Counted from the first letter of the stretch, positions 8,309 through 31,199 are shown. The stretch: 32,000 nt of DNA from Nostoc punctiforme PCC 73102 (GCF_000020025.1 NC_010628.1:840001-872000); one strand, 5' to 3'. Made by a program: numbers and translations. Notes: generated by a model not told the origin, from the letters alone.

Positions 8309-10054
8309 ATGTTAGAAGGATGGATTCAAATTGCCTTAACGCTGTTAATTATAGTAGCGATTACTCCATTTTTTGGGAGCTATATGGCGCGTGTATACCT
8401 AGAGCAGAGTACTTTTCTCGACCCAGTTTTGAATCTGGTTGAGCGAGTGCTTTATGCTTTAGTTGGTGTTAAAGCCAAAGAAAATATGACGGGTTGGCAG
8501 TATGGGCGGGCAATCGTTTACAGCAACGTAGTCATGGGATTGCTACTTTTCTTTATCATCATGAGTCAAGGATGGTTGCCCCTCAATCCCACGGGGATAA
8601 ATGCCCCAACTTGGGATACAGCGCTGCATACTACCATTTCCTTTATTACTAATACTAACCAGCAACATTATTCTGGTGAAACCTACATGAGCTACGCCAG
8701 CCAAATGTGGGGGTTGGGTTATCACATGTTCACCTCTGCTGGTACTGGTTTGGCAGTAGGAATTGCTTTTATTCGGGGATTGACGGGTAGATCGTTAGGC
8801 AACTTTTATGTAGACCTAATTCGCTCAATTACCCGAATTTTGCTGCCTATTTGTATTGTTGGCGGCATTGTCTTGATAGCTGCTGGTGTTCCCGAAACCC
8901 TGGCGGGTGTAGCTGTATTTCCGACTTTGGAAGATCCGAATATTAGTCAGGCGATCGCACGTGGCCCTGTTGCCCATTTTGAAATTATCAAGCAATTAGG
9001 AGAAAACGGCGGTGGCTTTTTCGCCATCAACTCAGCACACCCCTTTGAAAATCCCAGCGGATTTACTAATTTAATTCAGATCGTGGCAATGCTTTCGATT
9101 CCCACGTCCCTGATCTATACATACGGTTTGTTTGCCAATAACACCAAACAAGCGTTGTTACTCTACGGCATGATCGGGGTAATTTTTCTAGGATTTCTGA
9201 TTGTTACTGCCATTGGTGAATATAACGGTAATCCTGCTGTAAATGCGCTTTTGGGCAGTCAGCAACCGAATCTAGAGGGGAAAGAAGTCCGGTTTGGTTG
9301 GGCACAATCTGCATTATTTGCCGTAAGTACAACTGGTACTATGTGCGGCGCAGTCAATAGTTTACACGACTCCTTTATGCCCGCCGGCGGTTTTATCTTT
9401 CTTTCTAATATGTTCCTGCAAATCATGTGGGGTGGACAGGGTACAGGAACAGCTTACTTGTTTGCCTATAGCATTCTGGCGGTATTTGTAACAGGTTTGA
9501 TGGTGGGACGCACGCCAGAATTTTTGGGACGCAAGATTGAAAAGCGGGAAGTCGTACTTGCTAGCTTCTTGATTTTGCTAGTTCACCCCATTGCCATTTT
9601 AATTCCGGGGGGAATCGCCTTAGCTTTTCCTGACCAATTGGCAGGGATTAGTAATCCTGGCTTTCATGGCTTTTCTCAGGTGATTTACGAATATGCCTCA
9701 GCTGCTGCGAACAACGGTTCTGGCTTTGAAGGTTTAGGAGATTCACAACCTTCACCATTAGCGATCGCTAATGGTACTCAACCAACTGCAACCGCTTTGT
9801 GGTGGAACTTGAGTACCTGCTTCAGTTTACTCGCTGGACGCTATATCCCAATTTTAGGTTTGCTGTTATTAGCAGATAGTATGTCTCGCAAGCAAGCTGT
9901 TCCTTACACAACTGGTACATTACGAACCGACACCGGACTATTTACAGGCGTTACCGCAGGCGTAATTTTAATCTTGGGCGCACTTACATTCTTCCCAGTG
10001 CTGGCATTAGGCCCCATCGCTGAAGCCTTTTTTATCGCCAAAGGTATTGGCTAG
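8309..10054 (+). CDS. kdpA: Potassium-transporting ATPase subunit A
   Basis: 581 aa polytopic membrane protein. It has KdpA selectivity-filter-like motifs ([35 protein letters not shown]) and is followed by kdpB and kdpC. Confidence 0.95.
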
Positions 10055-10056
10055 TA

Positions 10057-10085
10057 GGGAGAGGGGAGGGGCGAGGGAACAAGGG
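10057..10085 (+). other. G-run tract matching the G-quadruplex consensus
   Basis: GGGAGAGGGGAGGGGCGAGGGAACAAGGG has five runs of at least 3 G (10057-59, 10063-66, 10068-71, 10075-77, 10083-85) with loops of 7 nt or less. It begins 3 nt after the kdpA stop codon, on the sense strand. Confidence 0.6.
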
Positions 10086-10098
10086 AAATTAGAAAGTT

Positions 10099-10329
10099 GT
10101 TCATCCACCTCTGAACTCCGTCGTTCCACCTTTGAACTCCGTTCATCCACCTCTGAACTCCGTCGTTCCACCTTTGAACTCCGTTCATCCACCTCTGAAC
10201 TCCTTCGTTCCACCTTTGAACTCCGTTCATCCACCTCTAAACTCCGTTCATCCACCTCTGAACTCCGTTCATCCACCTTTGAACTCCGTTCATCCACCTT
10301 TGAACTCCGTTCACCCACCTCAAAGACTC
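10099..10329 (+). repeat. Tandem repeat, 11 x 21 nt (consensus GTTCATCCACCTCTGAACTCC)
   Basis: Head-to-tail units begin at 10099, 10120, 10141, 10162, 10183, 10204, 10225, 10246, 10267, 10288 and 10309. Units 2, 4 and 6 are the variant (G/T)TCGTTCCACCTTTGAACTCC and the last unit is degenerate. Each unit holds the inverted pair GTTCA...TGAAC. Confidence 0.97.
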
Positions 10330-10347
10330 ATGCTCAAAATTTAATAT

Positions 10348-12489
10348 ATGCCAATCACTACTGATTCTCCTTCGCCCCGTATTCCTTCTGGAACTCGTGA
10401 CTCGCGCAAGCACACCCCCAAGACAGATATGCGGGGACTTTATCAAAGAGCAATTCGTGAGTCATTTGTCAAGCTAGATCCTCGAATTACTGTTAAAAAT
10501 CCAGTTATGTTTGTTGTTTGGGTGGGGACAATTGTCACCTTTTTAGTAACCCTTAACCCAAATCTCTTTGGCACAATCCAGGCAGATATCAGCCAACAAC
10601 GCTTGTTAAATGGGTTAATTACCTTCATTCTCTTTTTCACCCTCGTTTTTGCCAACTTTGCCGAAGCCGTAGCTGAAGGACGCGGCAAAGCACAGGCTGA
10701 TTCACTGCGATCGACGCGATCGGATACGATCGCTAATAAAATCCTCCCTGATGGTTCTGTACAACAAGTCAATTCTACGGAACTGCGACGGGGCGATTTG
10801 GTTAAGGTGGTTGCAAATAATATGATTCCCGCCGATGGGGATGTGATTAAAGGCATTGGCTCAGTAGATGAGTCTGCAATCACTGGGGAATCTGCGCCAG
10901 TACTGAAGCAACCAGGTACAGATATTGCCAGTTCAGTCACAGGAGGTACACGCCTACTCTCAGATGAGTTGACAATTCGGATTAGTGCCGATCCTGGTCA
11001 AGGCTTTATCGATCGCATGATTTACTTGGTAGAAGGGGCACAACGCACCAAGACTCCCAACGAGATTGCTTTGACGGTATTGTTGGCAGTGCTAACGCAG
11101 GTGTTCTTGATTGTAGTGGCAACTATGCCGCCATTTGTTGGCTACATCGCCAACTTTATCACCACAGCCTTTGGCCCGGAAGCGGGAAACAGTTTACGTA
11201 CTGGTGGTAGCGTTGCCATTCTCATTTCCCTACTGGTAGCTTTGATTCCCACAACTATCGGTGGTTTGCTCAGTGCGATCGGTATTGCAGGGATGGACAG
11301 GGTTGCCCAATTCAATGTCATTGCTACCTCCGGTCGGGCAGTAGAAGCTTGCGGCGACATCAACACCTTGGTGCTGGATAAGACGGGTACAATCACCTTG
11401 GGGAACCGAATGGCTGATGAGTTGATTCCTCTGGATAATCACTCGCTAGAAGATGTGGCGCGAGTCTCTCTAGCTGCTAGCTTGTTTGACGAAACGCCAG
11501 AGGGCAAGTCAATTGTAGTTTTAGCAGAAAAGTCTCAGGCTGCGGTAGATTTTAATATTGACAAAGCCGAAGGTGTAGAATTTTCGGCGAAAACCCGAAT
11601 GAGTGGCACAAATCTACCCGATGGCAAACAAGTTCGCAAAGGAGCGGTAGATGCCATTAAGGGATTTGTCCGTTCTCGTGGCGGCTACGTTCCTGATGAT
11701 ATAGACGCAGCTTATGAGCGAGTTTCCCGGTTAGGCGGTACACCTTTAGCTGTTTGCCAAGATGACAAAATTTATGGTGTCATTTACCTCAAAGATATTG
11801 TCAAACCTGGTCTGCGGGAGCGATTTGACCAACTCCGCCGCATGGGTGTTCGCACCGTCATGCTCACAGGTGACAACCGAATTACTGCTTCGGTAATTGC
11901 TGAAGAAGCTGGGGTGGATGATTTCATTGCCGAAGCGACTCCAGAAGACAAAATTGAGGTGATTCGCTCCGAACAATCTCAGGGTAAACTGGTGGCAATG
12001 ACCGGGGATGGTACTAACGATGCACCTGCTTTGGCTCAAGCAAACGTCGGTGTGGCAATGAACTCTGGGACGCAAGCTGCCAAAGAAGCTGCTAACATGG
12101 TGGATTTAGACTCTGACCCCACGAAGTTAATTGACTTAGTAACCATAGGTAAACAGTTGCTAATTACCCGTGGAGCCTTGACAACATTCTCCATCGCTAA
12201 CGATATTGCCAAGTATTTTGCGATCATTCCGACTATCTTTGCGGCGGCTGGAATCGGCGCACTTAATATTATGGGATTAAAGAGTGCCCAATCTGCGATC
12301 GTCTCGGCGTTGATTTACAATGCCTTGATTATTCCGGCACTCATTCCGTTAGCACTCAAAGGGGTGAAATTCTTACCTTTAACGGCAGATCAACTGCTAC
12401 GCCGCAACATCTTCATCTATGGACTTGGTGGCATTGTTGCTCCCTTTATTGCTATCAAACTGATAGATATTATCTTACCTTTGTCTTAA
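10348..12489 (+). CDS. kdpB: Potassium-transporting P-type ATPase subunit B
   Basis: 713 aa. P-type ATPase motifs are DKTGTIT (phosphorylation site), TGDN and [15 protein letters not shown]. It is collinear with E. coli KdpB from '[10 protein letters not shown]' onward. The start could instead be the ATG at 10429 (MRGLYQRA...). Confidence 0.95.
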
Positions 12490-12495
12490 TTTACT

Positions 12496-12765
12496 ATGAA
12501 ACCTGTTCGTATCCGCCGCACTATCCTTGCATCGCAAGTACTTGAAGAAATAACTGATATCTGGTGTCAATGGCGTAGACAAAAACTGCCACTGTATTTA
12601 TTCTTGGCAATGTGTTTCAACCTAGTGGTTGCACCTCTAGTCTATGCAGCTACTGGCGAACAACTTTCCCGCAGTCAATCTTGGGGATTGGGACTGTTAG
12701 GAATAGTGACGCTAGGGCTTTCTATCTATTTATTTTTTGTAATGTTTGTACCGGAGAAATTCTAA
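12496..12765 (+). CDS. kdpG: Small two-helix membrane protein in the cyanobacterial 'kdpG' position, with a KdpF-like C-terminal helix
   Basis: 89 aa. The ATG lies 6 nt after the kdpB stop and the stop overlaps the kdpC ATG (TAATG). The C-terminal WGLGLLGIVTLGLSIYLFFVMFVPEKF resembles KdpF peptides, which end ...PEKF or ...AEAF. Confidence 0.7.
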   Translation: MKPVRIRRTILASQVLEEITDIWCQWRRQKLPLYLFLAMCFNLVVAPLVYAATGEQLSRSQSWGLGLLGIVTLGLSIYLFFVMFVPEKF

Positions 12766-13403
12766 TGAGTTTTGCACGTGAAGCTAGTAGAGCAGTTCGT
12801 TCTACCCTGGTACTTTGGGTTATTGGAGCGATTATTTATCCTTTTGGGATGATTGCCATTGGGCAGACTGTGTTTCCGTTTCAAGCTAATGGTAGTTTAC
12901 TAAAAAATAGCGCAGGTCAAGTTGTGGGTTCTGCTTTGATTGGTCAACCTTTTACTAGCGATCGCTATTTTAACAGTCGTCCCAGTACCACTAGTTACAG
13001 CACAGCCGATCCCAAAAAGGACGATGGGGGAGTTTTGAAAACTGGGGTTTCTGGCGCTAGTAACTTGGCTCCCAGTAATCCCGCATTACTCGAACGCATC
13101 AAAGGTAAAGATGACCCAGATCCAAGTAAAAAAATTGAAGGCGATCTGACTCGTCTGAAAACAACAGGTGTACAGCCGACTGGCGATTTAATCTACACCT
13201 CTGGTTCTAGCCTTGACCCCCACATTACCCCCGAAGCTGCGATCGCACAAATTGCGCGAGTAAGCAAGGTACGAGGATTTCAGCCAAACCAACTAGAAAC
13301 TTTGATTGCCCAAAACACAGATGGACGCTTTCTCGGCATCTTTGGTGAGTCTGGAGTTAATGTGTTGAAGCTGAATTTAGCTTTGGATCAGATTAAGAAA
13401 TAA
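12765..13403 (+). CDS. kdpC: Potassium-transporting ATPase subunit C
   Basis: 212 aa from the ATG at 12765 (MSFAREASRAVRSTLVLWVIG...). It has an N-terminal TM anchor, GQPF, SGASNLAPSNP and the SGSSLDPHITPEAA signature. The upstream part of track ORF 12612..13403 overlaps kdpG and is rejected. Confidence 0.9.
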   Translation: MSFAREASRAVRSTLVLWVIGAIIYPFGMIAIGQTVFPFQANGSLLKNSAGQVVGSALIGQPFTSDRYFNSRPSTTSYSTADPKKDDGGVLKTGVSGASNLAPSNPALLERIKGKDDPDPSKKIEGDLTRLKTTGVQPTGDLIYTSGSSLDPHITPEAAIAQIARVSKVRGFQPNQLETLIAQNTDGRFLGIFGESGVNVLKLNLALDQIKK

Positions 13404-21690: not shown

Positions 21691-22458
21691 CTACTTGACG
21701 ACTGTTAATTTTCTCTCTAGATCGAATAAGAAGCCGTGGATATATTCTTCAGTCCATTCGGCACCATAGAAGCGTTTAAACATCCCTCGTGCTGGGTCTT
21801 TTTCAGCCCGATATCGTAGATATCGCAGTTGGGCTTGCTTAATGGCTACTAAATTTTGGGAATCTGTTACAGCTTCTGCCTGCTCTACGAAATCTAGATA
21901 AGCTTTTAAATAGTCTTTGAAAGCGGCAAACACCTGAGTTTCTACTACAGCCGTTTCTTGGGGACGAGTCCACAGAAAAGCGGGAGAGAAAAAGGGCTGT
22001 GCTTCTTCTGGGAAATCTCCTCCCCAAGATAGATGCTGTTGATGGGCGTGGAAAATAGGCAGAATTGGTTCAGTATATTTTGCCTGATATGCTGAATCAT
22101 CCCGAAATAGGGGCTGCATATCCAAAGCAATTAGGTGTCCTCCTGGTAATGTCACCAGATCCGCCCCAAAAAAGGGTAAATCGTAGTTGAGGTGGGGGAA
22201 AATCACAAAATTCAGCACTTGTAGCGAATTACCACCCTGGACATGAGCTGCACGAATTTGGCGCAATTTTGCGGTTTGAAAGGCGTAACTAGTGGTGACA
22301 ACTTCTTCTTGATTTTTGCCCTTGCCCACAACAGCACTGTTGGACTCAAACCCAGTGGGGATGGGATAGGGTTCTAAATCCAAGCGCGATCGCATGTAGG
22401 CGATCGCATAATCGAGAAATGGCTGATACAGTGTCACGTCGCTTCGCTCCGAATTCAT
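21691..22458 (-). CDS. pebB: Phycoerythrobilin:ferredoxin oxidoreductase
   Basis: 255 aa from the ATG at 22458 ([17 protein letters not shown]...). It has the ferredoxin-dependent bilin reductase fold pattern ([17 protein letters not shown]...LDMQP) and sits second in a pebA-pebB pair. The track ORF's 5 extra codons start at TTG inside a heptamer repeat. Confidence 0.85.
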
Positions 22459-22461
22459 AAT

Positions 22462-22489
22462 CCCAATGCCCAATGCCCAATGCCCAATT
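22462..22489. repeat. STRR-type heptamer array (CCCAATG)x3 + CCCAATT filling the pebA-pebB spacer
   Basis: Direct reading gives cccaatg cccaatg cccaatg cccaatt. The whole 35-nt intercistronic gap (22459-22493) is essentially this repeat. Confidence 0.95.
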
Positions 22490-22493
22490 CCTG

Positions 22494-23228
22494 TTATCTT
22501 TTACTTGCACTAACTGCTAGAGGAACGGCATCTTCAAATAAGAACTCATGAAGAAAACGCTCCGCCCATTCATGACCAAAGTAACTGCTAAACAAACCAG
22601 ATGCTGGATCTCGGTCTGCACTATATTGGTCATAGTCTTTTTGGGCTTTGACAATCCGTTGGATATCTTCTGGATCGTGAAGCGCTTGGGCATCTGCTAG
22701 CATTTGCCAATACAAGTTTAAATAATCTTGAAAAGCTTCAAAGACTCGCGTTGAAACTGTTTCAGCATCTGTTTTGGCAAACAAGAGGTACTTAGAAAAA
22801 TACTGGTTGGCATCGTAAAACTTCATTTCTAAGTTTTGCGCCAAATCCGGGTATTTATTATGGAGATATTTTAGCGGAGCTATATATTTGTTTTGATAAT
22901 CTTCATCCTGGAACAAAGGCTGAAAGTCAAGCACAATTAGATTTTTGACTTTGCCAAAGGATAAAAAATCAATCCCTAACAGAGGTAAATCGTAGTTATG
23001 ACTAGGATAAACCACGCTGTTAAAAATTTGGGCGCTTTCCCCGGCATCAATATAGGTATAGCGAATTTTCCGCAACTCTTGAGATTGGTAACACCAACTG
23101 CGAATAGTTGCAGGGTTTCTGCCGCGATCGCTAACTTTGAATTCCAAACCAGGGGGAATGACCCTACTTTGTAAATCAAAGCGCTGAAATAGCTCTTTTT
23201 CTAAAAATTCCAGGAAAGGTTTATACAT
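22494..23228 (-). CDS. pebA: 15,16-dihydrobiliverdin:ferredoxin oxidoreductase
   Basis: 244 aa from the ATG at 23228 ([17 protein letters not shown]...). It has bilin-reductase family blocks ([20 protein letters not shown]...LDFQP) and sits first in the pebAB pair. The 36 extra N-terminal codons in the track ORF run through a repeat and are rejected. Confidence 0.85.
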
Positions 23229-23313
23229 GGAACATGATTTGTTAACCCTTGCATGAAAATAAGTGATGGCAATCATACACGTCTCATTTATGAGAAACAA
23301 AGCAACATTCCTT

Positions 23314-23396
23314 AATGGGGATTGGGAATTGAGCATTGGGTATTCTTTCTTAATTCCCTATTCCCCATTCCCCATTCCCCATTCCCCATTCCCTAC
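23314..23396. repeat. Inverted STRR heptamer arrays (AATGGGG/ATTGGGA... facing (TTCCCCA)x4) forming a potential long stem-loop
   Basis: The left arm 23314-23340 is aatggggattgggaattgagcattggg. The right arm 23352-23396 is aattccctattccccattccccattccccattccccattccctac. It lies in the 167-nt spacer between the CpcS/U-type lyase gene and pebA. Confidence 0.9.
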
Positions 23397-23947
23397 TAAC
23401 GCCTAGCATGATTCTGAGCGATCATTTGCTCTAGCAGTTCTTGGGAAACACAGCGACGTTCAGAACAATAAGCCATTAAGTTGACACCGTTCATCATTCG
23501 CACGGTACTAACCCTGACACGAAAATCATCAGTAATAAACCAACAACGTTCTTGACCTTGGTTATTGTCATAGTCAGTATCAATCGTCAGCACTCCATCA
23601 TCGGCAAACCGATACTGGCTGACAACGGGAATGCTCTCAACATAGCCTTGGTTACGGATCAGTTTTCCAGAACGCCTCGTTTCGTCGGGAATATCAACCA
23701 AAATGGCAGCATTATCATTAGGTAGCCTGGTGTCTAAGTTAGCCTGCCATGCAAAACTCGCACCGCCTGTTGCTTTAGTTGGGTCTATGCCTTGGTCTTT
23801 ACAGACTTCTTGGACTTTAGGATCGTCCTTTTCCATGACTTTAACGATCAAATTCGACTGCCCAGACTCATCCGCCGCCGAGTCAAAATGGTGAACGGAA
23901 CGTTCCGTAAACCATGTACCCTCACTTTTACGGAAGAAGTCGATCAT
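23396..23947 (-). CDS. CpcS/CpeU-family (S/U-type) phycobiliprotein lyase
   Basis: 183 aa from the ATG at 23947 (MIDFFRKSEGTWFTERSVHHF...). The FFxxSxGxWxxxRxxHH start and the GKLIRNQGY...RCWFITDDFRVRVS blocks are typical of the lipocalin-like S/U lyases. An alternative ATG lies at 23971. Confidence 0.8.
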   Translation of the reverse strand: MIDFFRKSEGTWFTERSVHHFDSAADESGQSNLIVKVMEKDDPKVQEVCKDQGIDPTKATGGASFAWQANLDTRLPNDNAAILVDIPDETRRSGKLIRNQGYVESIPVVSQYRFADDGVLTIDTDYDNNQGQERCWFITDDFRVRVSTVRMMNGVNLMAYCSERRCVSQELLEQMIAQNHARR

Positions 23948-24087
23948 TGACAAGGGCGGTATTAGATGCATCTGTTTTAAAACCTCTTTTTATCAAATTT
24001 TGCCGTTATTGAATACTGAGCAATGAGATGAAGTCCCAATTTCGCTAAAGTGTAGAATAACTCCAAAAGTTATATTTTTATCAACTG

Positions 24088-24936
24088 ATGACAAATAGTG
24101 AAATTCAACTTATTACTAGCGATGCCTACGGCAACGGCTTTGCCGAACGCTCCAGTCCAACTCCAGAAATATTAAAAGCCCTCAAAGCCGGAATCCCTCT
24201 GGATTGGGTCGATTTGTACCAATTCAATCTCAAGGAAGTTGATTTACAACAAGCTAACTTGAGCAAAGCCAAGCTACTAGGAGCCGACCTCAGTGAGCTA
24301 GTCTTGAGTAATGCCGATTTGAGTGGCGCAGATTTGCGAGGCGCTAATCTGCAAGGAGCCGATTTGAGTGGGGCTAATTTGCAGGGAGCCTATTTAAACC
24401 GTGCGAACCTCCAACAAGCCAATCTCAGTGGCGCAAATTTGGAAGGAGCCAAATTGCAAGTAGCACGTTATGATGCACATACGAAATGGCCCCAAGAATA
24501 TAACTACAAAGCTTCGGGAGCTGTAGGTCCGGGTGCTAATCTCAATGGTGCTTTTCTTAACACAGCTTCTTTACGAAATGCAGATTTACAAGGTGTTAAT
24601 CTGCGTGGAGCCTACCTGAGTGGTGCTGACTTGACAGGAGCAAATTTGCAAGGTGCGGCTTTAAGTGGCGCTGATTTGACGAAAGCTTATTTGACTGGGG
24701 CTTGTTTGCGGAATGCTCGATTGACTGGAGCCGATTTGCGGGATGCAGACCTGCGAGCAACTGACCTCTGTGATGCAGAGATGGAGCATCTTCAAAGTAT
24801 CGCTGGTGCAGATTTTACTTTAGCCCAAGGACTTACAGAAGCAACTAAAGCTATGCTTAAAAGCCGCCCATATTCAGAACTTGACGTTTGGAACGCTTAC
24901 ACTCGCACAACAACTCGTGAGAGTTTGAGTGCTTGA
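24088..24936 (+). CDS. Pentapeptide-repeat protein
   Basis: 282 aa. Two blocks of A(D/N)LxG-type pentapeptides (ADLSGADLRGANLQGADLSGANLQGAYLNRANLQQANLSGANLEGAKL, then a second block) are separated by a ~35-aa linker. Confidence 0.92.
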   Translation: MTNSEIQLITSDAYGNGFAERSSPTPEILKALKAGIPLDWVDLYQFNLKEVDLQQANLSKAKLLGADLSELVLSNADLSGADLRGANLQGADLSGANLQGAYLNRANLQQANLSGANLEGAKLQVARYDAHTKWPQEYNYKASGAVGPGANLNGAFLNTASLRNADLQGVNLRGAYLSGADLTGANLQGAALSGADLTKAYLTGACLRNARLTGADLRDADLRATDLCDAEMEHLQSIAGADFTLAQGLTEATKAMLKSRPYSELDVWNAYTRTTTRESLSA

Positions 24937-25468: not shown

Positions 25469-26131
25469 CTATTGTGGCAACAAGTCTTCTAAAGCAGCTC
25501 CGACAACTCGGTGATCCTCATCCTGTCTAAGTTGGTTCAGGGCTGCTTTTGCTTCCGGCTCGTCAAAGCGCTTGAGGGCATAGCTAACTCGCACGCGCAT
25601 CCGCCAAGATTCATCATTCACTAACGTTAGTATTTGGGATAGTGCCGCAGTATGTTGGCTAGAATCAGCTAGTAAACTGAGTCCATCAACAGAGGATTCC
25701 TGAACTGTGAAATCTTCATCTTTTAAACCTTGAACGCAGATATCGAATAGCTCTTCAGGACAATTCATTTCAGCGATCGCAGCTAAAATACTCCGCTTAA
25801 CTAGCCAATGGTCATCTTGATAAAATGCCATAACTAGATGAGAAACTGCGACTCTACCAAATAGTGACAAAGAATTGGCCGCCTCAGCTCGCACGTTGGG
25901 GGTATCGTCAAATTTCATAATTTGCATCAAAGCAGCAAAGGATTCTGCTGATTGTTGATTACCCAAACCCCTGGTTACAAAAGAACGCACCAAAAATTCT
26001 GAGTCATGAAGTTTACTTGCTAAAAGAGGAACTGCAACTTCTGATTCATAATCATTGAGGGCTGCGATCGCCTTCAAACGAGAGTGAAAATCCGGGTTCT
26101 TCAGTTCAGTTTGGATTTGATCGATTTCCAT
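25469..26131 (-). CDS. HEAT-repeat protein of the phycobilisome-lyase E/F clan (CpeZ/NblB-like)
   Basis: 220 aa. It has about five HEAT-like repeats with the recurring (D/N)xxxxVRxxAaxaLg pattern (e.g. DSEFLVRSFVTRGLG, TPNVRAEAANSLSL, SWRMRVRVSYALKRF, DHRVVGAALEDL). Its size is similar to CpeZ. Confidence 0.78.
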   Translation of the reverse strand: MEIDQIQTELKNPDFHSRLKAIAALNDYESEVAVPLLASKLHDSEFLVRSFVTRGLGNQQSAESFAALMQIMKFDDTPNVRAEAANSLSLFGRVAVSHLVMAFYQDDHWLVKRSILAAIAEMNCPEELFDICVQGLKDEDFTVQESSVDGLSLLADSSQHTAALSQILTLVNDESWRMRVRVSYALKRFDEPEAKAALNQLRQDEDHRVVGAALEDLLPQ

Positions 26132-26231
26132 AGGTGCATTTGGTAGAGCTATCTTTACTTTATTTTACAGATGTCAAAAAATAGCGATCGCATTTGGGAA
26201 GATTTAACGCAATACCCTAAACTCTTAACCA

Positions 26232-26813
26232 ATGACTCAATTAAGCGAAACCGTCAAAGAATTAATCGCCAAAGCTAGAATTATTAGCTTTGCTGAGTGG
26301 GATAAGTCTCATACCAAAGCAGCGATCGCCATATTTCAAGCTGCGGATGATGCTTTTCGTTATCTGAGCGACGAAGATTTATTACAGATTCAAACCAAGT
26401 CATCCGATAATTCTGAGTTGATTCCTGTTGCTGTGTTGTTACGCGATCGCGCCGCCGAAATTGTTGATGAAGCTAGAGAGCAGGTTTTGACGACCTATCC
26501 TGAAATTATCCAGCCTGGAGGTGGTCTTTATCCACCTGAACGCGCCCAAGCTTGCTGGCGAGATTTTTGGCATTTTCTCCGTTGTATTACTTATGGCATA
26601 GCAGGTGGACACGCTGACTATACAAATCCCACAGGACTGCACTATATGAACTTACTCTATCAGGAATTACAAGTTCCATTAGATGCAATGCTCTTAGGTT
26701 TAAAAAGCATTAAAGCTGCTAGTTTGAAACGCTGTCCAGCCAATCAGCAAGAAATTCTTAATCCTTATTTTGACCATTTAATCACCCAACTGGATACTTT
26801 TCAAGTTCGGTAA
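26232..26813 (+). CDS. Orphan phycobiliprotein-family (globin-fold) paralogue with an N-terminal extension
   Basis: 193 aa. By eye it is collinear with allophycocyanin/phycocyanin subunits: FRYLSDEDLLQIQ (cf. ARYLSPGELDRIK), PEIIQPGGGLY, QACWRDFWHFLRCITYGIAGG (cf. xxCLRDxxYYLRxxTYGxxxGD), YQELQVPLDA and YFDHLI. Confidence 0.8.
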   Translation: MTQLSETVKELIAKARIISFAEWDKSHTKAAIAIFQAADDAFRYLSDEDLLQIQTKSSDNSELIPVAVLLRDRAAEIVDEAREQVLTTYPEIIQPGGGLYPPERAQACWRDFWHFLRCITYGIAGGHADYTNPTGLHYMNLLYQELQVPLDAMLLGLKSIKAASLKRCPANQQEILNPYFDHLITQLDTFQVR

Positions 26814-27471
26814 GGTAAGTGAGCGTGAATAATTCAAGGTTTTTAGTCACGGCTAGAGTTGCTTACTAAGAACCAATTTAATTGAATTTACATTACGTAA
26901 TATAGTTTGATTTATTCTTGCCCACTTACCAAAATTAACTTTGGTGAATCAGCACTATAAATACTCTTGCTCAAGGGAAAACAACAATAGGATCGCCTGC
27001 ATCCCAATCTCAAATCAAATTCTAAAAACAAGCTTAAATTTCTCTAAAGTATTATCTAACTTCACAAAAATTAATAAATATGGTTTCGGCATCGTATCAG
27101 AATGTGTAAAGGCATTTGATGTAAAAACTTAAATAATTAAAACTAATAAGGATTTAAAGTCTCTATGACCTCTCCTTTTTCACAAAGATGTAAAGTTTTT
27201 TAACATCTGCTGAATTCCTTCTCATAAAAAAATCTAGTTGTTAACTGGGAGATAGTTTGAATAGCTTTTAGACCAGCATCATGATTAGGGTTTGCTCAAT
27301 TCTGCCGTCAGTTGTCATATAGAAAGATATTTAACGCACTTTAAAAAAATAAAGTTTTACAAATGCTAGTCAGTAGCAAAAATAACTGACAACTGAGGCT
27401 AAATTCTACCCATTATGGGGTTAGGATACTCAAAAATTTCATTTAATTCGCGTTTTTAAGGAGATACTTCA

Positions 27472-28230
27472 ATGTCACTATGGGCTATTGATTCACCTAA
27501 TGTTGAACTGCGTCCGAATACCAGCGAAAGTGAATTACAAACACTGATTCGGGCGGTTTACAAACAGGTTTTGGGGAATGCTCACTTGCTAGAAAGTGAG
27601 CGCCTAGCTACTGCTGAATCGCAATTGCGCGATCGCAAAATCAGCGTCCGCGAATTCGTCAACATCGTTGCGAAATCAGAACTCTATCAATCCCTGTTTT
27701 TCAGTTCCTCTTCCCAGTATCGGTTCATTGAACTGAACTTCAAACACCTGCTAGGTCGTGCTCCTGCCGATCAAGCAGAAATCGCCGAACACGTCCGTAT
27801 ATATAACGAACAGGGCTATGATGCTGAGATCGAATCCTATATCGATAGCCAAGAGTATCAGCAGAATTTTGGCGAGAATATTGTTCCTTATCCTCGCAGC
27901 ACTAGCTCCCAAATAGGAATTAAGAATGTTACCTTTAACCGCACCTTTTCCTTATTGAGAGGAGTAGCAAGCAGCGATAGCGATCGCAAAGCCAAACTGA
28001 TCAGCGATATAGGTGCAAATTTACCTACATCCATCAAGCGTCCCGTTGCTGGTTCTAGTGTAAGCAGCACTGGCAAACGCTTCTTGATTAAGGCAGTCAA
28101 AGGTTCAGGTAATCTCCGTACTCGTGTGGGCAACCTTGAATATGTAGTTAACTACAACCAACTGTCTGGACAAGTGCAAAACATTCATAGAACGGGCGGC
28201 AAAATCATCAGTATTACTGAAGTTGCTTAA
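27472..28230 (+). CDS. Phycoerythrin-associated rod linker (CpeC/D/E family): linker domain + C-terminal CpcD-like domain
   Basis: 252 aa with AAGGAG 8 nt upstream of the ATG. The linker domain reads IRAVYKQVLGN...SVREFVNIVAKSELY...FIELNFKHLLGRAP...YIDSQEYQQNFGENIVPY. The CpcD-like end reads RFLIKAV...HRTGGKIISITEV. It lies directly upstream of cpeS-cpeT-cpeR. Confidence 0.88.
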   Translation: MSLWAIDSPNVELRPNTSESELQTLIRAVYKQVLGNAHLLESERLATAESQLRDRKISVREFVNIVAKSELYQSLFFSSSSQYRFIELNFKHLLGRAPADQAEIAEHVRIYNEQGYDAEIESYIDSQEYQQNFGENIVPYPRSTSSQIGIKNVTFNRTFSLLRGVASSDSDRKAKLISDIGANLPTSIKRPVAGSSVSSTGKRFLIKAVKGSGNLRTRVGNLEYVVNYNQLSGQVQNIHRTGGKIISITEVA

Positions 28231-28240
28231 GTAGATGAAT

Positions 28241-28302
28241 GGGGAGTCAGGAGTGGGAGGAGGATAATAACTTCTAACTCCCTACTCCTAACTCCCTACT
28301 CA
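28241..28302 (+). repeat. Imperfect ~20-bp stem-loop built from inverted heptamers, between the linker gene and cpeS
   Basis: GGGGAGTCAGGAGTGGGAGGAGG (28241-28263) faces TAACTCCCTACTCCTAACTCCCTACTCA (28275-28302). The reverse complement of the right arm matches the left arm except for 2-3 positions. Confidence 0.75.
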
Positions 28303-28444
28303 GTACAGGCCAAACGCCCCGATACCGCTAACAGCACTCCCAAGTGCAGTTGTAGTCAAGGAAGCTAGTATATAGACTGGGAGAATAACTATTTAGCCAA
28401 AATATCTTTTGGATTGTAAGCTACTTTTTAAAATCACTTTTCTA

Positions 28445-28981
28445 ATGGAAATTACTGAATTCTTTGAACTTTCAATTGGACGATGGCGATCGCAACGTAG
28501 CGGTCATCATTTGGCATTCGCTCACTTTGAACAAGTGCTGTCTAACATTGACATTGAGTCTCTATCCACCGACGATCCGGCGGTACTATCAATTTGTCAA
28601 TTGTATGACACCGACCCCGGCAGTATCACTCACCCCTTTCGGATGACTTGGAAAGGTGAGTCAGACTGGGACGATAAACCAATCTCTGGTAGTACCGTGC
28701 TGGTGCCAATTCCAGATATAGAAAATCCTTCTAGGGGAAAACTTTTACGCGACCAAGGATACGCTGAGACAATCCCCGCAGTGGGTAAATACCACTTGAG
28801 TGAAGATGGGATTTTTACCCTGCTGACGGAGTATGAACACGCTGCTGCTGAAGAGCGAATTTGGTTTGCCACACCAAATCTGCGATTTCGGGTAGCAACA
28901 ATTAAAACCAGTGATGGTAAAGGTGTGACAACAGCTTCCTTTTCTTCAGAGATTCGCTCTTTGTCTAGTTCAACCAGTTAG
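28445..28981 (+). CDS. cpeS: S-type phycobiliprotein lyase (CpeS/CpcS family)
   Basis: 178 aa from the ATG at 28445 (MEITEFFELSIGRWRSQRSGHH...). It has GKLLRDQGYAE and ERIWFATPNLRFRV blocks, and the synteny is linker-cpeS-cpeT-cpeR. The track ORF starts at an upstream TTG. Confidence 0.85.
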   Translation: MEITEFFELSIGRWRSQRSGHHLAFAHFEQVLSNIDIESLSTDDPAVLSICQLYDTDPGSITHPFRMTWKGESDWDDKPISGSTVLVPIPDIENPSRGKLLRDQGYAETIPAVGKYHLSEDGIFTLLTEYEHAAAEERIWFATPNLRFRVATIKTSDGKGVTTASFSSEIRSLSSSTS

Positions 28982-29038
28982 TAATATCAGGTTAAAACAT
29001 AGAAGGAATCATCTAGTTTGTCACTACCGAGATTGAAT

Positions 29039-29668
29039 ATGACAATAGCACCCAGTGAATCTAGCAGCAACGCTAGTGATTTGCTCACCTTAGCCTGTTG
29101 GATGTCAGGAGATTTTAGCAACTACAAGCAATCTTTTGCAAATCCCCAACTTTACGCCCACATTCACATTTTTTTTCGTCCTTTACCGATTGAATTTTTT
29201 TCTGCCATCGGTTTTTATTCAGAACAAGCTTATGACCACGATTTATGGACACCCTACCGCCAAGGAGTACATAAACTGGTAGATTGTAGCGATCGCATTT
29301 ATATCGAAAATTACAGCTTGAAAGACCAGATGCTTTATGCAGGTGCGGCTCGTGAATTAGATATCCTCAAAACTATCACCCCAGATTGTATCGAACGGCG
29401 TTATAACTGTTCGATGGTTTTTATGCGAGAGGGTGAAATGTTTCGGGGTAGCGTGGAACCGGGTAATCAATGTCTGATTAACCGCAATGGCTGCCAGACA
29501 TATCTAGTCAGTGACGTAGAAATAACCGAGCATACTTGGATAAGTCTAGATAAAGGTATGGATATTGAAACCCACAAGCAGATATGGGGGTCAACTGCTG
29601 GACCTTTGCGATTTGAAAAACGGGAAAGTTTTGCTGATGAATTACTTGCAGTGAGAGCATTATGTTGA
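29039..29668 (+). CDS. cpeT: T-type phycobiliprotein lyase (CpeT/CpcT family)
   Basis: 209 aa from the ATG at 29039 (MTIAPSES...). The motifs LACWMSGDFSNYKQSFANPQLYAHIHIFFRPLP and FYSEQAYDHDLWTPYRQGVHKL are hallmarks of CpcT/CpeT. Confidence 0.85.
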   Translation: MTIAPSESSSNASDLLTLACWMSGDFSNYKQSFANPQLYAHIHIFFRPLPIEFFSAIGFYSEQAYDHDLWTPYRQGVHKLVDCSDRIYIENYSLKDQMLYAGAARELDILKTITPDCIERRYNCSMVFMREGEMFRGSVEPGNQCLINRNGCQTYLVSDVEITEHTWISLDKGMDIETHKQIWGSTAGPLRFEKRESFADELLAVRALC

Positions 29669-30000
29669 TTCAGCTTGAATCTGTTAAATATAAAAAGTTA
29701 CCTCCACAGGCTGAAAAAAAGATGCGCTGTTGGATTCGTAGTCGGCACTTGATTTGTTCAGGTAACTTTTTTATATTCGAGACATTAGAATATACGACCA
29801 TTGAAAGATTTTCTGAATGTGTCGCTTCTTTAGGAGGAACAGTAATATCCGTTGACCCCATTAATAAAATCTGGATGGGCGCTCATCGCCAAGTAATTTT
29901 ATATCAGGCCAAAGCTAGTTTACATACTCCTCATCATACTTTGAAACAATACTGGATAAAATACGGTGGTTTCTACACTAGATTTGATGAGCGTGTTTAG
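29662..30000 (+). CDS. cpeR: Putative phycoerythrin operon activator CpeR
   Basis: 112 aa. The ATG overlaps the cpeT stop (ATGTTGA). Its size and its position after cpeS-cpeT match the cpeCDESTR arrangement known from Fremyella/Calothrix. The CWIRSRHLICSGNFFIFE...LGG block resembles CpeR as I recall it. Confidence 0.62.
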   Translation: MLIQLESVKYKKLPPQAEKKMRCWIRSRHLICSGNFFIFETLEYTTIERFSECVASLGGTVISVDPINKIWMGAHRQVILYQAKASLHTPHHTLKQYWIKYGGFYTRFDERV

Positions 30001-30676: not shown

Positions 30677-30876
30677 TTGTTAATTGTTTGGCATTTTGAC
30701 ATTAAATTATAATTAAGCTGTGATATATTAGCTAGAATGCAAATGATTGAAACATTAAGAATAAGCTCAACTAGCATTCTTTTTGTTCATATTATTTGTT
30801 TGTCTTACAACCTATTAAGTTTTATTTGTGCTGTTTTTTGCATATTCCAAGGTGTATTGCCACTTTCAAGCTATTT

Positions 30877-30908
30877 AGACGGGATAAACTATCCCGTCTT
30901 TTATTTTG
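30877..30908 (+). terminator. Intrinsic terminator T2 (stem related to T1)
   Basis: AGACGGGAT-AAACT-ATCCCGTCT (9-bp stem) followed by TTTTATTTTG. It shares the AGACGGG...CCCGTCTTTT core with T1. Confidence 0.62.
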
Positions 30909-31046: not shown

Positions 31047-31184
31047 ATGATACTAGAAAAATATCCTATCAGGTTTGAGGATATTTGCACACATCCTATA
31101 GGAAGATGCCCTATGAATATAATAATGAGTAAATTAATTCGGGATGTTGTTATGCACTGGATTTATATAGAGGTTTGGCGGTGA
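31047..31184 (+). CDS. Candidate 45-aa micro-ORF (MILEKYPIRFEDICTHPIGRCPMNIIMSKLIRDVVMHWIYIEVWR)
   Basis: GAGG (31037-31040) lies 6 nt before the ATG, and the TGA stop falls in the loop of terminator T4. Against it, 5 of 8 Ile codons are ATA and it uses AGG/CGG codons, so it may be a non-coding RNA instead. Confidence 0.25.
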   Translation: MILEKYPIRFEDICTHPIGRCPMNIIMSKLIRDVVMHWIYIEVWR

Positions 31185-31199
31185 GCCAAACCTTTTTTT
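31171..31199 (+). terminator. Intrinsic terminator T4
   Basis: AGGTTTGGC-GGTGA-GCCAAACCT (9-bp stem) followed by TTTTTTT. Confidence 0.72.

What the first reader, a model, noticed from the sequence alone, without database searches (positions are those of the whole stretch)
26232..26813. Orphan, N-terminally extended phycobiliprotein paralogue that keeps the Cys-x-Arg-Asp bilin-binding site
The 193-aa product aligns by eye over the whole globin fold with allophycocyanin/phycocyanin subunits. This includes QACWRDFWHFLRCITYGIAGG, which corresponds to the Cys-82 chromophore site and the Arg/Asp that hold the bilin, followed by the LRxxTYG helix. It differs from canonical subunits in three ways. 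It is encoded alone, with no alpha/beta partner gene. It has ~27 extra residues before the FRYLSxxxL helix. It has diverged in the positions that make alpha-beta contacts. It sits inside the phycoerythrin accessory island, next to lyase genes and pebAB. It could be a PEB- or PCB-binding minor phycobiliprotein, a photoprotective or terminal-emitter element, or a bilin carrier or sensor rather than a rod building block.
Basis: partly seen in the sequence, partly recalled or inferred. Interest (0 to 1): 0.72.

Follow-up and report, generated by a model that had tools for sequence, protein, structure and literature searches.

The report
Known allophycocyanin-like protein (AplA type)
The gene is real and encodes a lone, bilin-binding relative of allophycocyanin with an extra N-terminal segment, but it belongs to the allophycocyanin-like (Apl/AplA) class first described in 2004, whose function is still unknown.

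Summary
The ORF at 26232-26813 (+) is real. It encodes 193 aa and matches Pfam PF00502 at E 6.6e-50. The product is identical to ACC79487.1 / WP_012407512.1 of Nostoc punctiforme PCC 73102, annotated only as "phycobilisome protein".

- It is closest to allophycocyanin alpha/alpha-B.
- Cys108-Trp-Arg-Asp aligns with the Cys81 bilin site.
- It has 27 extra N-terminal residues, which are conserved and under purifying selection.
- No partner phycobiliprotein gene lies in the 32 kb window.
- It sits among pebAB, cpeS-like/cpeT lyase genes and a phycoerythrin linker gene.

These are the published hallmarks of the allophycocyanin-like (Apl) proteins (AplA; Montgomery et al. 2004). The window protein aligns end to end, extension included, with the marine Synechococcus protein encoded between unk4 and cpcG2/cpcL, the position the literature gives for aplA. 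Relatives turned up in 503 places in species-representative genomes, and nuclear-encoded copies exist in red algae.

So the description is right, but the class is not new. I did not find a function for it in the literature available here. My best inference is a soluble bilin-binding protein outside the phycobilisome that acts as an accessory or regulatory factor for rod and bilin genes. Interest is low to moderate.

The parts
26232..26813 (+). apl gene (AplA-type allophycocyanin-like protein), 193 aa plus stop codon. Identical to ACC79487.1 / WP_012407512.1 / UniProt B2J9I8 of Nostoc punctiforme PCC 73102.
26232..26312 (+). Codons 1-27: the family-specific N-terminal extension. In the model it forms a helix at residues 6-14 and a short helix at 21-25. 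Canonical phycobiliproteins lack it.
   Evidence: query 35 = ApcD 8; invariant L11 I12 I17 F20 W23; pLDDT about 79-93; dN/dS 0.10-0.24 in 11 of 12 pairs; also aligned in marine and red-algal homologues.
26553..26564 (+). Cys108-Trp109-Arg110-Asp111: the predicted thioether bilin-attachment Cys (Cys81/82 equivalent) with the Arg/Asp that hold the bilin. Trp109 is an Apl signature; canonical subunits have Leu/Ile there.
   Evidence: alignment. C in 24/25 cyanobacterial and 21/21 eukaryotic Apl-like sequences; R in 23/25 and 20/21; D in 24/25 and 21/21; W in 22/25 and 19/21, against L/I in canonical subunits.
25469..26131 (-). 220-aa HEAT-repeat protein (PBS-lyase HEAT-like repeats, weakly NblB/CpcE/F-like), transcribed divergently from apl across a 100-bp spacer. 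It is the most constant neighbour of apl in Nostocales.
   Evidence: HEAT(-)/apl(+) pair in most loci that extend that far, including Mastigocoleus (L077, L079, L080); in Tolypothrix (L081) the HEAT gene is still nearby but a DUF1838 gene lies between.
26132..26165 (.). 34-bp block of the HEAT/apl intergenic spacer that is at least 90% conserved in 41 Nostoc loci. It is a candidate shared regulatory or 5'-UTR element; its function was not tested.
24088..24936 (+). 282-aa pentapeptide-repeat protein. It is 48% identical over 201 aa to the marine Synechococcus pentapeptide protein ('unk5') that lies near aplA.
21691..23971 (-). pebB (21691-22473), pebA (22494-23336) and a CpeS-family lyase gene (23396-23971): phycoerythrobilin synthesis and attachment. 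These are context genes.
27472..30000 (+). Rod linker gene (PBS_linker + CpcD domains, 27472-28230), cpeS (28409-28981), cpeT (29018-29668) and a 112-aa ORF (29662-30000). The last is called cpeR here only by its position after cpeS-cpeT. These are context genes downstream of apl.
   Evidence: The operon name cpeCDESTR is cited.

Best explanation
The ORF is the Nostoc punctiforme member of the allophycocyanin-like (Apl, AplA-type) class. This is a third, single-gene lineage of the phycobiliprotein superfamily, alongside the alpha and beta subunits.

Shown here:
- It has the phycobiliprotein globin fold and is closest to allophycocyanin alpha.
- It keeps the Cys-x-Arg-Asp bilin site.
- It carries a conserved 27-residue N-terminal extension.
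- It replaces several residues that are near-invariant in canonical subunits.
- It has no partner gene in the window.
- It is under purifying selection.

Inferred mechanism: a bilin (phycocyanobilin or phycoerythrobilin) is thioether-linked to Cys108. The lyase is most plausibly an S/U-type enzyme such as the CpeS-family products encoded nearby, or else the divergently encoded HEAT-repeat protein. Because its surface differs from that of canonical subunits, the holoprotein does not form an alpha-beta protomer and stays outside the phycobilisome. There it acts as a soluble bilin-binding accessory or regulatory factor for rod and bilin genes, not as an antenna subunit.

The family assignment is well supported. 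The accessory-factor role is my preferred inference, not a demonstrated fact.
For: Fold and nearest relatives. The globin core of the model superposes on smURFP at 2.2 A.

Bilin site and extension conserved. Purifying selection, extension included. No partner gene in the window.

Not a canonical subunit: all six NCBIfam phycobiliprotein equivalog models score 26-76 bits against cut-offs of 225-279. Canonical subunits split from all Apl-like sequences in a neighbour-joining tree, with bootstrap 0.68.

Link to named aplA: the window protein aligns over residues 6-189 with marine cluster P0150/P0302 (E 1.7e-20 over 1.8 billion proteins). The gene for that cluster lies between a 140-aa ORF with no Pfam hit and a PBS_linker gene, followed by a CpeT-family gene and a pentapeptide gene. 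That is the unk4-aplA-cpcG2/cpcL-...-unk5 arrangement described by Six 2007 and Grebert 2022.

Literature on the class: homologous to ApcA, not linked to the phycobilisome, has lost partner-interaction residues; 'variants of unknown function'.

Accessory-factor reading: gene order is conserved with lyase, pebAB, linker, HEAT and pentapeptide genes across about 70 Nostoc loci. Other lineages place apl next to cpcBA, cpeBA, pcyA or a PAS-GAF kinase. Red-algal homologues are transcript-derived, or sit on a 1.85-Mb genome scaffold, and carry long N-terminal presequences. From general knowledge, red-algal linkers and lyases are nuclear-encoded, whereas the structural alpha/beta subunits are plastid-encoded.
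Against: I could not retrieve the Fremyella diplosiphon AplA sequence or the 2004 paper. Assignment to the class therefore rests on its published hallmarks and on the marine aplA link, not on a direct comparison with the founding member.

Nothing here shows chromophorylation, oligomeric state or cellular location for this protein.

The residues I recall as the alpha-beta salt-bridge pair (D39, R117) are retained, so loss of heterodimerisation is not proven by sequence.

The AlphaFold models place the X-Y hairpin about 20 A from its canonical position both with and without the extension. This could be a monomer-prediction artefact, and I could not run a control on a canonical subunit.

Genomic linkage to rod and lyase genes fits a sensor as well as it fits an assembly factor.
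Confidence: 0.8

Rival explanations
1. Apl is a light sensor, as the 2004 authors proposed. The bound bilin would report light colour or intensity and signal to the chromatic-acclimation machinery through protein-protein contacts.
For: [quoted passage not shown] In Tolypothrix tenuis and a Calothrix strain, apl lies convergent to a PAS-GAF histidine kinase plus a single-domain response regulator; the Calothrix locus also has pcyA in between. The bilin site is strictly conserved.
Against: There is no output domain. No photochemistry is known for the phycobiliprotein fold. In Nostoc and marine Synechococcus the neighbours are biosynthetic or structural genes, not signalling genes. No later paper in the searched library reports a sensory function.
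Confidence: 0.25
2. Apl is a red-shifted terminal emitter or energy-transfer element of rod-only (CpcL-type) phycobilisomes, which lack an allophycocyanin core.
For: In marine Synechococcus, aplA lies immediately upstream of cpcG2/cpcL. In the window, apl is followed by a rod linker gene. The protein is allophycocyanin-like with an intact bilin pocket.
Against: In N. punctiforme the linker after apl has the rod-linker architecture (PBS_linker + CpcD) and is not a CpcL. Many Nostoc loci have zero to three linker genes there. A 1:1 structural role fits poorly with nuclear, accessory-like encoding in red algae. AplA was reported as not linked to phycobilisomes.
Confidence: 0.08
3. It is a canonical minor core subunit (of the ApcD, ApcF or alternative ApcA kind) whose partner gene lies elsewhere in the genome.
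For: The best sequence and structure matches are ApcD and ApcA.
Against: It scores 76 bits against the ApcA cut-off of 270 and 70 bits against the ApcB cut-off of 228. It has a 27-aa conserved extension. Near-invariant canonical residues are replaced: GGN.Y becomes GG[GA]LYP, D-Y becomes W-H, a Gly becomes Tyr/Ala, and a Ser becomes Glu. It branches apart from canonical subunits. The class is reported as outside the phycobilisome.
Confidence: 0.03
4. It is a decaying, non-functional phycobiliprotein gene copy.
For: It stands alone without a partner gene and is strongly diverged from canonical subunits.
Against: The reading frame is intact, and orthologues of 65-91% identity occur in hundreds of genomes. 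dN/dS is 0.11-0.23 in all but the closest pair. Forty columns are invariant in 69 sequences. Homologues are retained in marine picocyanobacteria and red algae.
Confidence: 0.01

Closest known systems
AplA of Fremyella diplosiphon and the Apl class (Montgomery, Casey, Grossman & Kehoe 2004, J Bacteriol 186:7420)
   Same: Both are allophycocyanin-alpha-like, with an N-terminal extension of about 28 residues, retained chromophore-binding residues, altered residues conserved in canonical subunits, and no partner gene. The class is reported not to be in phycobilisomes (and my recollection of the abstract). The positional orthologue in Tolypothrix tenuis PCC 7101, a Nostocales strain that I recall as a close relative of F. 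diplosiphon, is 68% identical to the window protein.
   Different: The founding sequence itself could not be retrieved, so percent identity to it is unknown. In the Tolypothrix/Calothrix group the gene sits next to a PAS-GAF kinase. In N. punctiforme it sits inside the pebAB / lyase / linker cluster.
Marine Synechococcus AplA (the gene between unk4 and cpcG2/cpcL in the phycobilisome rod region)
   Same: Homology runs the full length, including the extension (residues 6-189 to 6-189). Both have the same CWRD motif. Both are followed by a linker gene and have a related pentapeptide-repeat gene nearby, 48% identical.
   Different: Identity is only about 33%. The marine protein has 201 aa and a CWND/CWRD-C-W variant of the motif. 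There is no HEAT-repeat neighbour in the marine locus.
Allophycocyanin alpha-B (ApcD) and ApcA
   Same: Same fold and same bilin-binding Cys/Arg/Asp. They are the best PDB matches, at E 1e-21 and about 30% identity.
   Different: They have 160-162 aa and no extension. They pair with ApcB and assemble into the phycobilisome core. The window protein is far below the equivalog cut-offs and differs at canonical signature columns.
Red-algal nuclear 'allophycocyanin alpha chain'-annotated proteins (e.g. Porphyridium purpureum KAA8495026.1)
   Same: They share the ACWRDFW.F motif, the GG.LYP loop and a segment homologous to the N-terminal extension. Core identity to the window protein is about 40%.
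   Different: They are eukaryotic, and the sequences are transcript-derived or on a large genome scaffold. They have 40-100 extra N-terminal residues that look like targeting peptides. The Asp13-equivalent is replaced by Gln/Glu.

Membership tests
Apl (allophycocyanin-like) class | Phycobiliprotein (PF00502) fold, closest to allophycocyanin subunits | tested here: met
   PF00502 at E 6.6e-50. The best NCBIfam and PDB matches are ApcA/ApcD. The Foldseek top hits are allophycocyanin B and allophycocyanin.
Apl (allophycocyanin-like) class | N-terminal extension of about 28 residues relative to allophycocyanins | tested here: met
   Query residue 35 aligns with ApcD residue 8 and Pfam profile position 3, giving 27 extra residues. 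The extension is conserved and under purifying selection.
Apl (allophycocyanin-like) class | Residues critical for chromophore attachment and interaction are retained | tested here: met
   C108, R110 and D111 align with the ApcD bilin site. They are invariant in 69 orthologues and near-invariant across marine and red-algal homologues.
Apl (allophycocyanin-like) class | Substitutions at positions needed for alpha-beta interaction and canonical tertiary structure | tested here: inconclusive
   Many near-invariant canonical columns are replaced: Asn72-type GGN, the D-Y after the bilin site, a Gly, a Ser, and the Arg at column 63. However, D39 and R117, which I recall as the salt-bridge pair, are kept. 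No coordinates were available to map contacts. The model's X-Y hairpin is displaced, but there was no control.
Apl (allophycocyanin-like) class | Full-length homology to a protein that the literature names AplA | tested here: met
   It aligns over residues 6-189 with marine cluster P0150/P0302. The gene for that cluster occupies the published aplA position between unk4 and cpcG2/cpcL.
Apl (allophycocyanin-like) class | Direct sequence relationship to the founding member, F. diplosiphon AplA | not testable with these tools
   Neither the paper nor the sequence is held. The sequence was not recognisable among named hits or cluster members.
Apl (allophycocyanin-like) class | Covalently bound bilin in vivo and absence from phycobilisomes | not testable with these tools
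   These are experimental properties. They are reported for F. diplosiphon AplA only (and the recalled abstract).
Canonical allophycocyanin subunits (ApcA/ApcB/ApcD/ApcF) | Score above the curated equivalog cut-off | tested here: not met
   ApcA 76.2 bits against a cut-off of 270; ApcB 69.9 bits against 228. For comparison, a bona fide ApcA (P0212) scores 299 and an ApcB (P0247) scores 246.
Canonical allophycocyanin subunits (ApcA/ApcB/ApcD/ApcF) | About 160-170 residues starting at helix X, encoded with or matched to a partner subunit | tested here: not met
   193 aa with 27 extra residues. No second phycobiliprotein gene in the 32 kb window.

The most novel reading that the evidence does not exclude
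Apl proteins are an ancient third lineage of the phycobiliprotein superfamily, retained from cyanobacteria into red-algal nuclear genomes. On this reading they are neither antenna subunits nor photoreceptors. They would be bilin-handling or assembly factors for phycobilisome rods, for example holding bilin or a nascent subunit for the lyases. They would work with a conserved HEAT-repeat partner (in Nostocales) and a conserved pentapeptide-repeat protein (shared by Nostoc and marine Synechococcus).
Probability: 0.3. Interest if true: 0.6.

Novelty: already known. Interest (0 to 1): 0.25.

Why it matters
As a discovery it matters little. The protein class was published in 2004, and this exact protein is already in GenBank and UniProt under a generic name. 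Its value is as annotation: the N. punctiforme "phycobilisome protein" ACC79487.1 and its hundreds of similarly labelled relatives should be called Apl/AplA-type rather than treated as antenna subunits.

The wider question stays open. What does a conserved, chromophore-competent, non-phycobilisome phycobiliprotein do? I found no function for it in the literature available here. The comparative data gathered here give concrete handles for experiments:
- a constant HEAT-repeat neighbour in Nostocales;
- a pentapeptide-repeat neighbour shared with marine Synechococcus;
- red-algal nuclear homologues.

Tried and rejected
- **Founding paper and sequence.** I tried to read Montgomery et al. 2004 by DOI and PMC id, and Hirose et al. 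2010; none is held.
- **Finding F. diplosiphon AplA.** I looked among named hits, used two cluster look-ups, and ran a second homologue search seeded with the Tolypothrix tenuis orthologue. It was not recognisable. NCBI now files F. diplosiphon under Microchaete diplosiphon.
- **Literature on this gene.** Searches for its accessions and likely locus tags found nothing. A search for AplA together with RcaE also found nothing.
- **Promoter and terminator scan around the gene.** Counts were no higher than in shuffled sequence, so it was uninformative.
- **Phylogeny.** The first attempt timed out. The second had a distance-formula bug that gave NaN values and should be ignored. One search is the valid run.
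- **Does the extension cause the displaced X-Y hairpin?** I modelled residues 29-193 alone. The hairpin stays displaced. So that idea is rejected in silico, and the displacement may be a monomer-prediction artefact.
- **Strict phycoerythrin linkage.** I considered it and rejected it. In Kovacikia, apl lies next to cpcBA, and in a Calothrix strain next to pcyA.

Full report
**Observation**

The window has an ATG-to-TAA ORF at 26232-26813 on the + strand, encoding 193 aa. It matches Pfam PF00502 (Phycobilisome protein) at E 6.6e-50, with residues 35-187 covering profile positions 3-155 of 155. Against solved structures, the best sequence matches are allophycocyanin alpha-B (ApcD) and ApcA, at E 1e-21 to 1e-19. 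In those alignments Cys108 of 'AQACWRDFWHFLRCITYGI' lines up with the bilin-binding Cys of 'YNQCLRDYGWYLRLVTYGV'. Query residue 35 lines up with ApcD residue 8, so the protein has 27 extra N-terminal residues.

A tblastn search of the whole window with ApcA-, ApcB-, ApcD-, CpeA- and CpeB-like queries hits only this ORF. There is therefore no partner gene within 32 kb.

The neighbours are:
- pebB (21691-22473, -) and pebA (22494-23336, -);
- a CpeS-family gene (23396-23971, -);
- a pentapeptide-repeat gene (24088-24936, +);
- a HEAT-repeat gene (25469-26131, -);
- after the ORF, a rod linker gene (27472-28230), cpeS (28409-28981), cpeT (29018-29668) and a 112-aa ORF in the position of cpeR (29662-30000).

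The exception is the statement about alpha-beta contact positions, which I could test only partly.

**Identity of the sequence**

The product is identical, residue for residue, to ACC79487.1 / WP_012407512.1 / UniProt B2J9I8 of Nostoc punctiforme PCC 73102, annotated 'phycobilisome protein'. The window is therefore N. punctiforme chromosome or a near-identical strain. Nostoc sp. LEGE 12450 has a 99% identical copy in the same gene order.

**It is not a canonical subunit**

All six NCBIfam phycobiliprotein equivalog models match far below their cut-offs. ApcA scores 76 bits against a cut-off of 270, ApcB 70 against 228, and the phycocyanin and phycoerythrin subunit models 26-44 against 225-279. 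Genuine ApcA and ApcB sequences pass those cut-offs.

I aligned 25 cyanobacterial and 21 eukaryotic relatives with 11 canonical subunits. Columns that are near-invariant in canonical proteins are replaced by different conserved residues:
- canonical GGN(A/C)Y becomes GG(G/A)LYP;
- C(L/I)RD becomes CWRD;
- the following D-Y becomes W-H;
- a canonical Gly becomes Tyr/Ala;
- a Ser becomes Glu;
- an invariant Arg in helix A is lost.

A bootstrapped neighbour-joining tree on 156 core columns separates the 11 canonical sequences from all the others with 0.68 support. It places the window protein with its Tolypothrix, Calothrix, Mastigocoleus and Kovacikia counterparts at 0.80-0.90. Searches were failed attempts and should be ignored.

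**It is a functional gene**

Orthologues of 65-91% identity and 190-200 aa are abundant. A second search seeded with the Tolypothrix orthologue found 1946 proteins at E <= 1e-40. A pattern scan of one genome per species found 503 places that encode a relative.

In 69 orthologues, 40 columns are invariant. They include C108, W109, R110 and D111, a second Cys (C118), and five positions in the extension (L11, I12, I17, F20, W23). Nei-Gojobori dN/dS against 12 Nostoc orthologues is 0.11-0.23 overall in all but the closest pair. For codons 1-28 alone it is 0.10-0.24 in those same comparisons, and 0.70 in the closest pair, where there are few substitutions. The extension is therefore translated and constrained, and the pseudogene reading is excluded.

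**What is already known**

These features define the allophycocyanin-like (Apl) proteins: allophycocyanin-like sequence, an N-terminal extension of about 28 residues, retained chromophore residues, altered residues conserved in canonical subunits, and no partner. Their first member, AplA of Fremyella diplosiphon, was described by Montgomery, Casey, Grossman and Kehoe (J Bacteriol 2004, 186:7420). I could not read that paper here. Its abstract is cited from memory: a 28-aa extension, chromophore residues kept, alpha-beta interaction positions substituted, a covalently bound chromophore, and not detected in phycobilisomes.

Papers I could read say the following:
[quoted passage not shown] Unlike an extra CpcB, it has not kept the ability to interact with a partner subunit (Six et al. 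2007).
- Scheer and Zhao call these proteins 'variants of unknown function'.
- No later functional study surfaced in the library.

**Independent membership test**

Six et al. and Grebert et al. place marine Synechococcus aplA between unk4 and cpcG2/cpcL. They place unk5, a pentapeptide-repeat protein, downstream of cpcG2.

The exhaustive representative search returned a 201-aa marine cluster (P0150/P0302). It aligns with the window protein over residues 6-189 of both, at 33% identity and E 1.7e-20. On marine contigs its gene lies between a 140-aa ORF with no Pfam hit and a 237-aa PBS_linker gene. A CpeT-family gene, a pentapeptide gene, phycoerythrin linker genes and cpeS follow. That is the published aplA locus.

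So the window protein is homologous, extension included, to a protein the literature calls AplA. A direct comparison with the F. diplosiphon sequence remains undone, because I could not retrieve it.

**Genomic context across lineages**

In about 70 Nostoc and related loci the order is conserved: pebB-pebA-cpeS-like (-), pentapeptide (+), HEAT (-), apl (+), zero to three linker genes, then cpeS-cpeT-cpeR. In many of these loci cpeBA lies just beyond pebB; in N. punctiforme it does not.

The divergent HEAT/apl pair is the most constant feature. It persists in Mastigocoleus. In Tolypothrix tenuis a DUF1838 gene has come between the two.

Other lineages show different neighbours:
- In T. tenuis and a Calothrix strain, apl is convergent to a single-domain response regulator and a PAS-GAF histidine kinase. 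In the Calothrix locus pcyA lies between them.
- In Kovacikia it is divergent from cpcBA plus a HEAT gene.
- In Aphanocapsa feldmannii it is divergent from cpeBA plus a HEAT gene.
- One metagenomic locus shows no phycobilisome context.

The window's pentapeptide protein is 48% identical over 201 aa to the marine unk5-position protein. The common denominator is linkage to bilin and rod genes generally, not strictly to phycoerythrin.

**Wider distribution**

The representative search also returned 220-290-aa proteins with long N-terminal presequences that carry the same ACWRDFW.F and GG.LYP signatures. Cluster look-up shows they come from red algae: Porphyridium purpureum KAA8495026.1 on a 1.85-Mb scaffold, and Porphyridium aerugineum and Rhodosorus marinus transcriptomes. 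Their core identity to the window protein is about 40%.

The lineage is therefore old. In red algae it is encoded in the way accessory factors are rather than structural subunits. From general knowledge, red-algal alpha/beta subunits are plastid-encoded, while linkers and lyases are nuclear-encoded.

**Structure**

An AlphaFold2 model built from 69 orthologues is confident (mean pLDDT 91.3, pTM 0.89). It shows an extra helix at residues 6-14 and a short helix at 21-25, ahead of the usual X, Y, A, B, E, F, G and H helices.

Foldseek against the PDB gives allophycocyanin B and allophycocyanin as top hits, but with rmsd about 8.5 A over about 158 columns. In contrast smURFP, an engineered allophycocyanin alpha without the X-Y hairpin, superposes at 2.2 A over 131 columns. 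By arithmetic on those numbers, the roughly 28 hairpin residues are displaced by about 20 A from the canonical extended position.

**Most likely mechanism**

Shown here: the protein has a bilin-competent globin domain with a constrained extra N-terminal element, a surface unlike that of canonical subunits, and no partner gene.

Inferred:
- A bilin made by PcyA or PebAB is attached to Cys108.
- The lyase is most plausibly an S/U-type enzyme. From my own knowledge of the field, that lyase class serves Cys-82-type sites; Scheer and Zhao 2008 review the S-, T- and E/F-type lyase classes. Two such genes sit in the cluster. The divergent HEAT-repeat protein is the alternative candidate.
- The holoprotein remains soluble and outside the phycobilisome.

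I favour an accessory or regulatory role in rod and bilin metabolism over a dedicated photoreceptor. The reasons are the biosynthetic and structural neighbours in Nostoc and marine Synechococcus, the lack of any output domain, and the accessory-like encoding in red algae. The kinase-adjacent arrangement in Tolypothrix and Calothrix keeps the sensor hypothesis alive, at about 0.25. A terminal-emitter role for CpcL-type rods is possible but weakly supported, at about 0.08. A canonical core-subunit role or a pseudogene is effectively excluded.

**Verdict**

The residual interest lies in the unsolved function of Apl proteins and in the comparative leads listed below.

Noticed in passing
proteins P0131, P0135, P0136 and relatives (no window coordinates): Red algae (Porphyridium purpureum KAA8495026.1, P. 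aerugineum, Rhodosorus marinus) have Apl-type homologues with long N-terminal presequences. The sequences are transcript-derived or sit on a large genome scaffold, so they are apparently nuclear-encoded. One is annotated 'allophycocyanin alpha chain'. I found no mention of this in the searched literature.
   Followed up: partly
window 25469-26131 (-) and loci L001-L081: A 220-aa HEAT-repeat gene is transcribed divergently from apl in most Nostocales loci that extend that far. It is weakly NblB/CpcE/F-like, at 100 bits against a cut-off of 300. It is a candidate dedicated lyase, chaperone or partner.
   Followed up: partly
window 24088-24936 (+); L083 9883-10572: The pentapeptide-repeat protein in the cluster is 48% identical over 201 aa to the marine Synechococcus pentapeptide protein in the 'unk5' position near aplA. 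This accessory gene is conserved across very distant phycoerythrin clusters.
   Followed up: partly
L081 10593-13095; L088 9718-13182: In Tolypothrix tenuis PCC 7101 and a Calothrix strain, apl is convergent to a 123-124-aa response regulator and a 705-707-aa PAS-GAF histidine kinase. By architecture these resemble RcaF/RcaE, but the name was not verified. In the Calothrix locus pcyA lies in between.
   Followed up: partly
window 26132-26165: A 34-bp block at the HEAT-proximal end of the HEAT/apl spacer (A.GTGCATTTGGTA.AGCTA.TCTTT.A.TTTA) is at least 90% conserved in 41 Nostoc loci, while the rest of the spacer varies in length from 70 to 322 bp.
   Followed up: no
window 26814-27471 and loci L005-L075: The number of linker genes between apl and cpeS varies from zero to three among Nostoc genomes. 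N. punctiforme has one, preceded by a 658-bp gap containing only a 63-aa ORF.
   Followed up: no
window 30725-30898 and 31141-31196 (+): Rfam matches above gathering score: NsiR8 (67.4 bits) and the cyanobacterial heterocyst sRNA (86.3 bits), downstream of the cpeR-position ORF.
   Followed up: no
protein P0433 (352 aa); L088 14992-15468: One metagenomic homologue is called as a fusion of DUF2656 with the Apl domain, and a separate DUF2656 gene lies 5 kb from apl in a Calothrix locus. This may be a functional link or a gene-calling artefact.
   Followed up: no
window 8309-13403 (+) and 6700-7935 (+): A kdpA/kdpB/kdpC potassium-transport operon and a FIST-domain gene occupy the left part of the window. 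They are unrelated to the finding.
   Followed up: no
window residue C118 (codon 26583-26585): A second cysteine, in LRCITYG, is invariant in 69 close orthologues. It is Val/Ile in marine and red-algal homologues and Tyr/Leu in canonical subunits. Its role is unknown.
   Followed up: no
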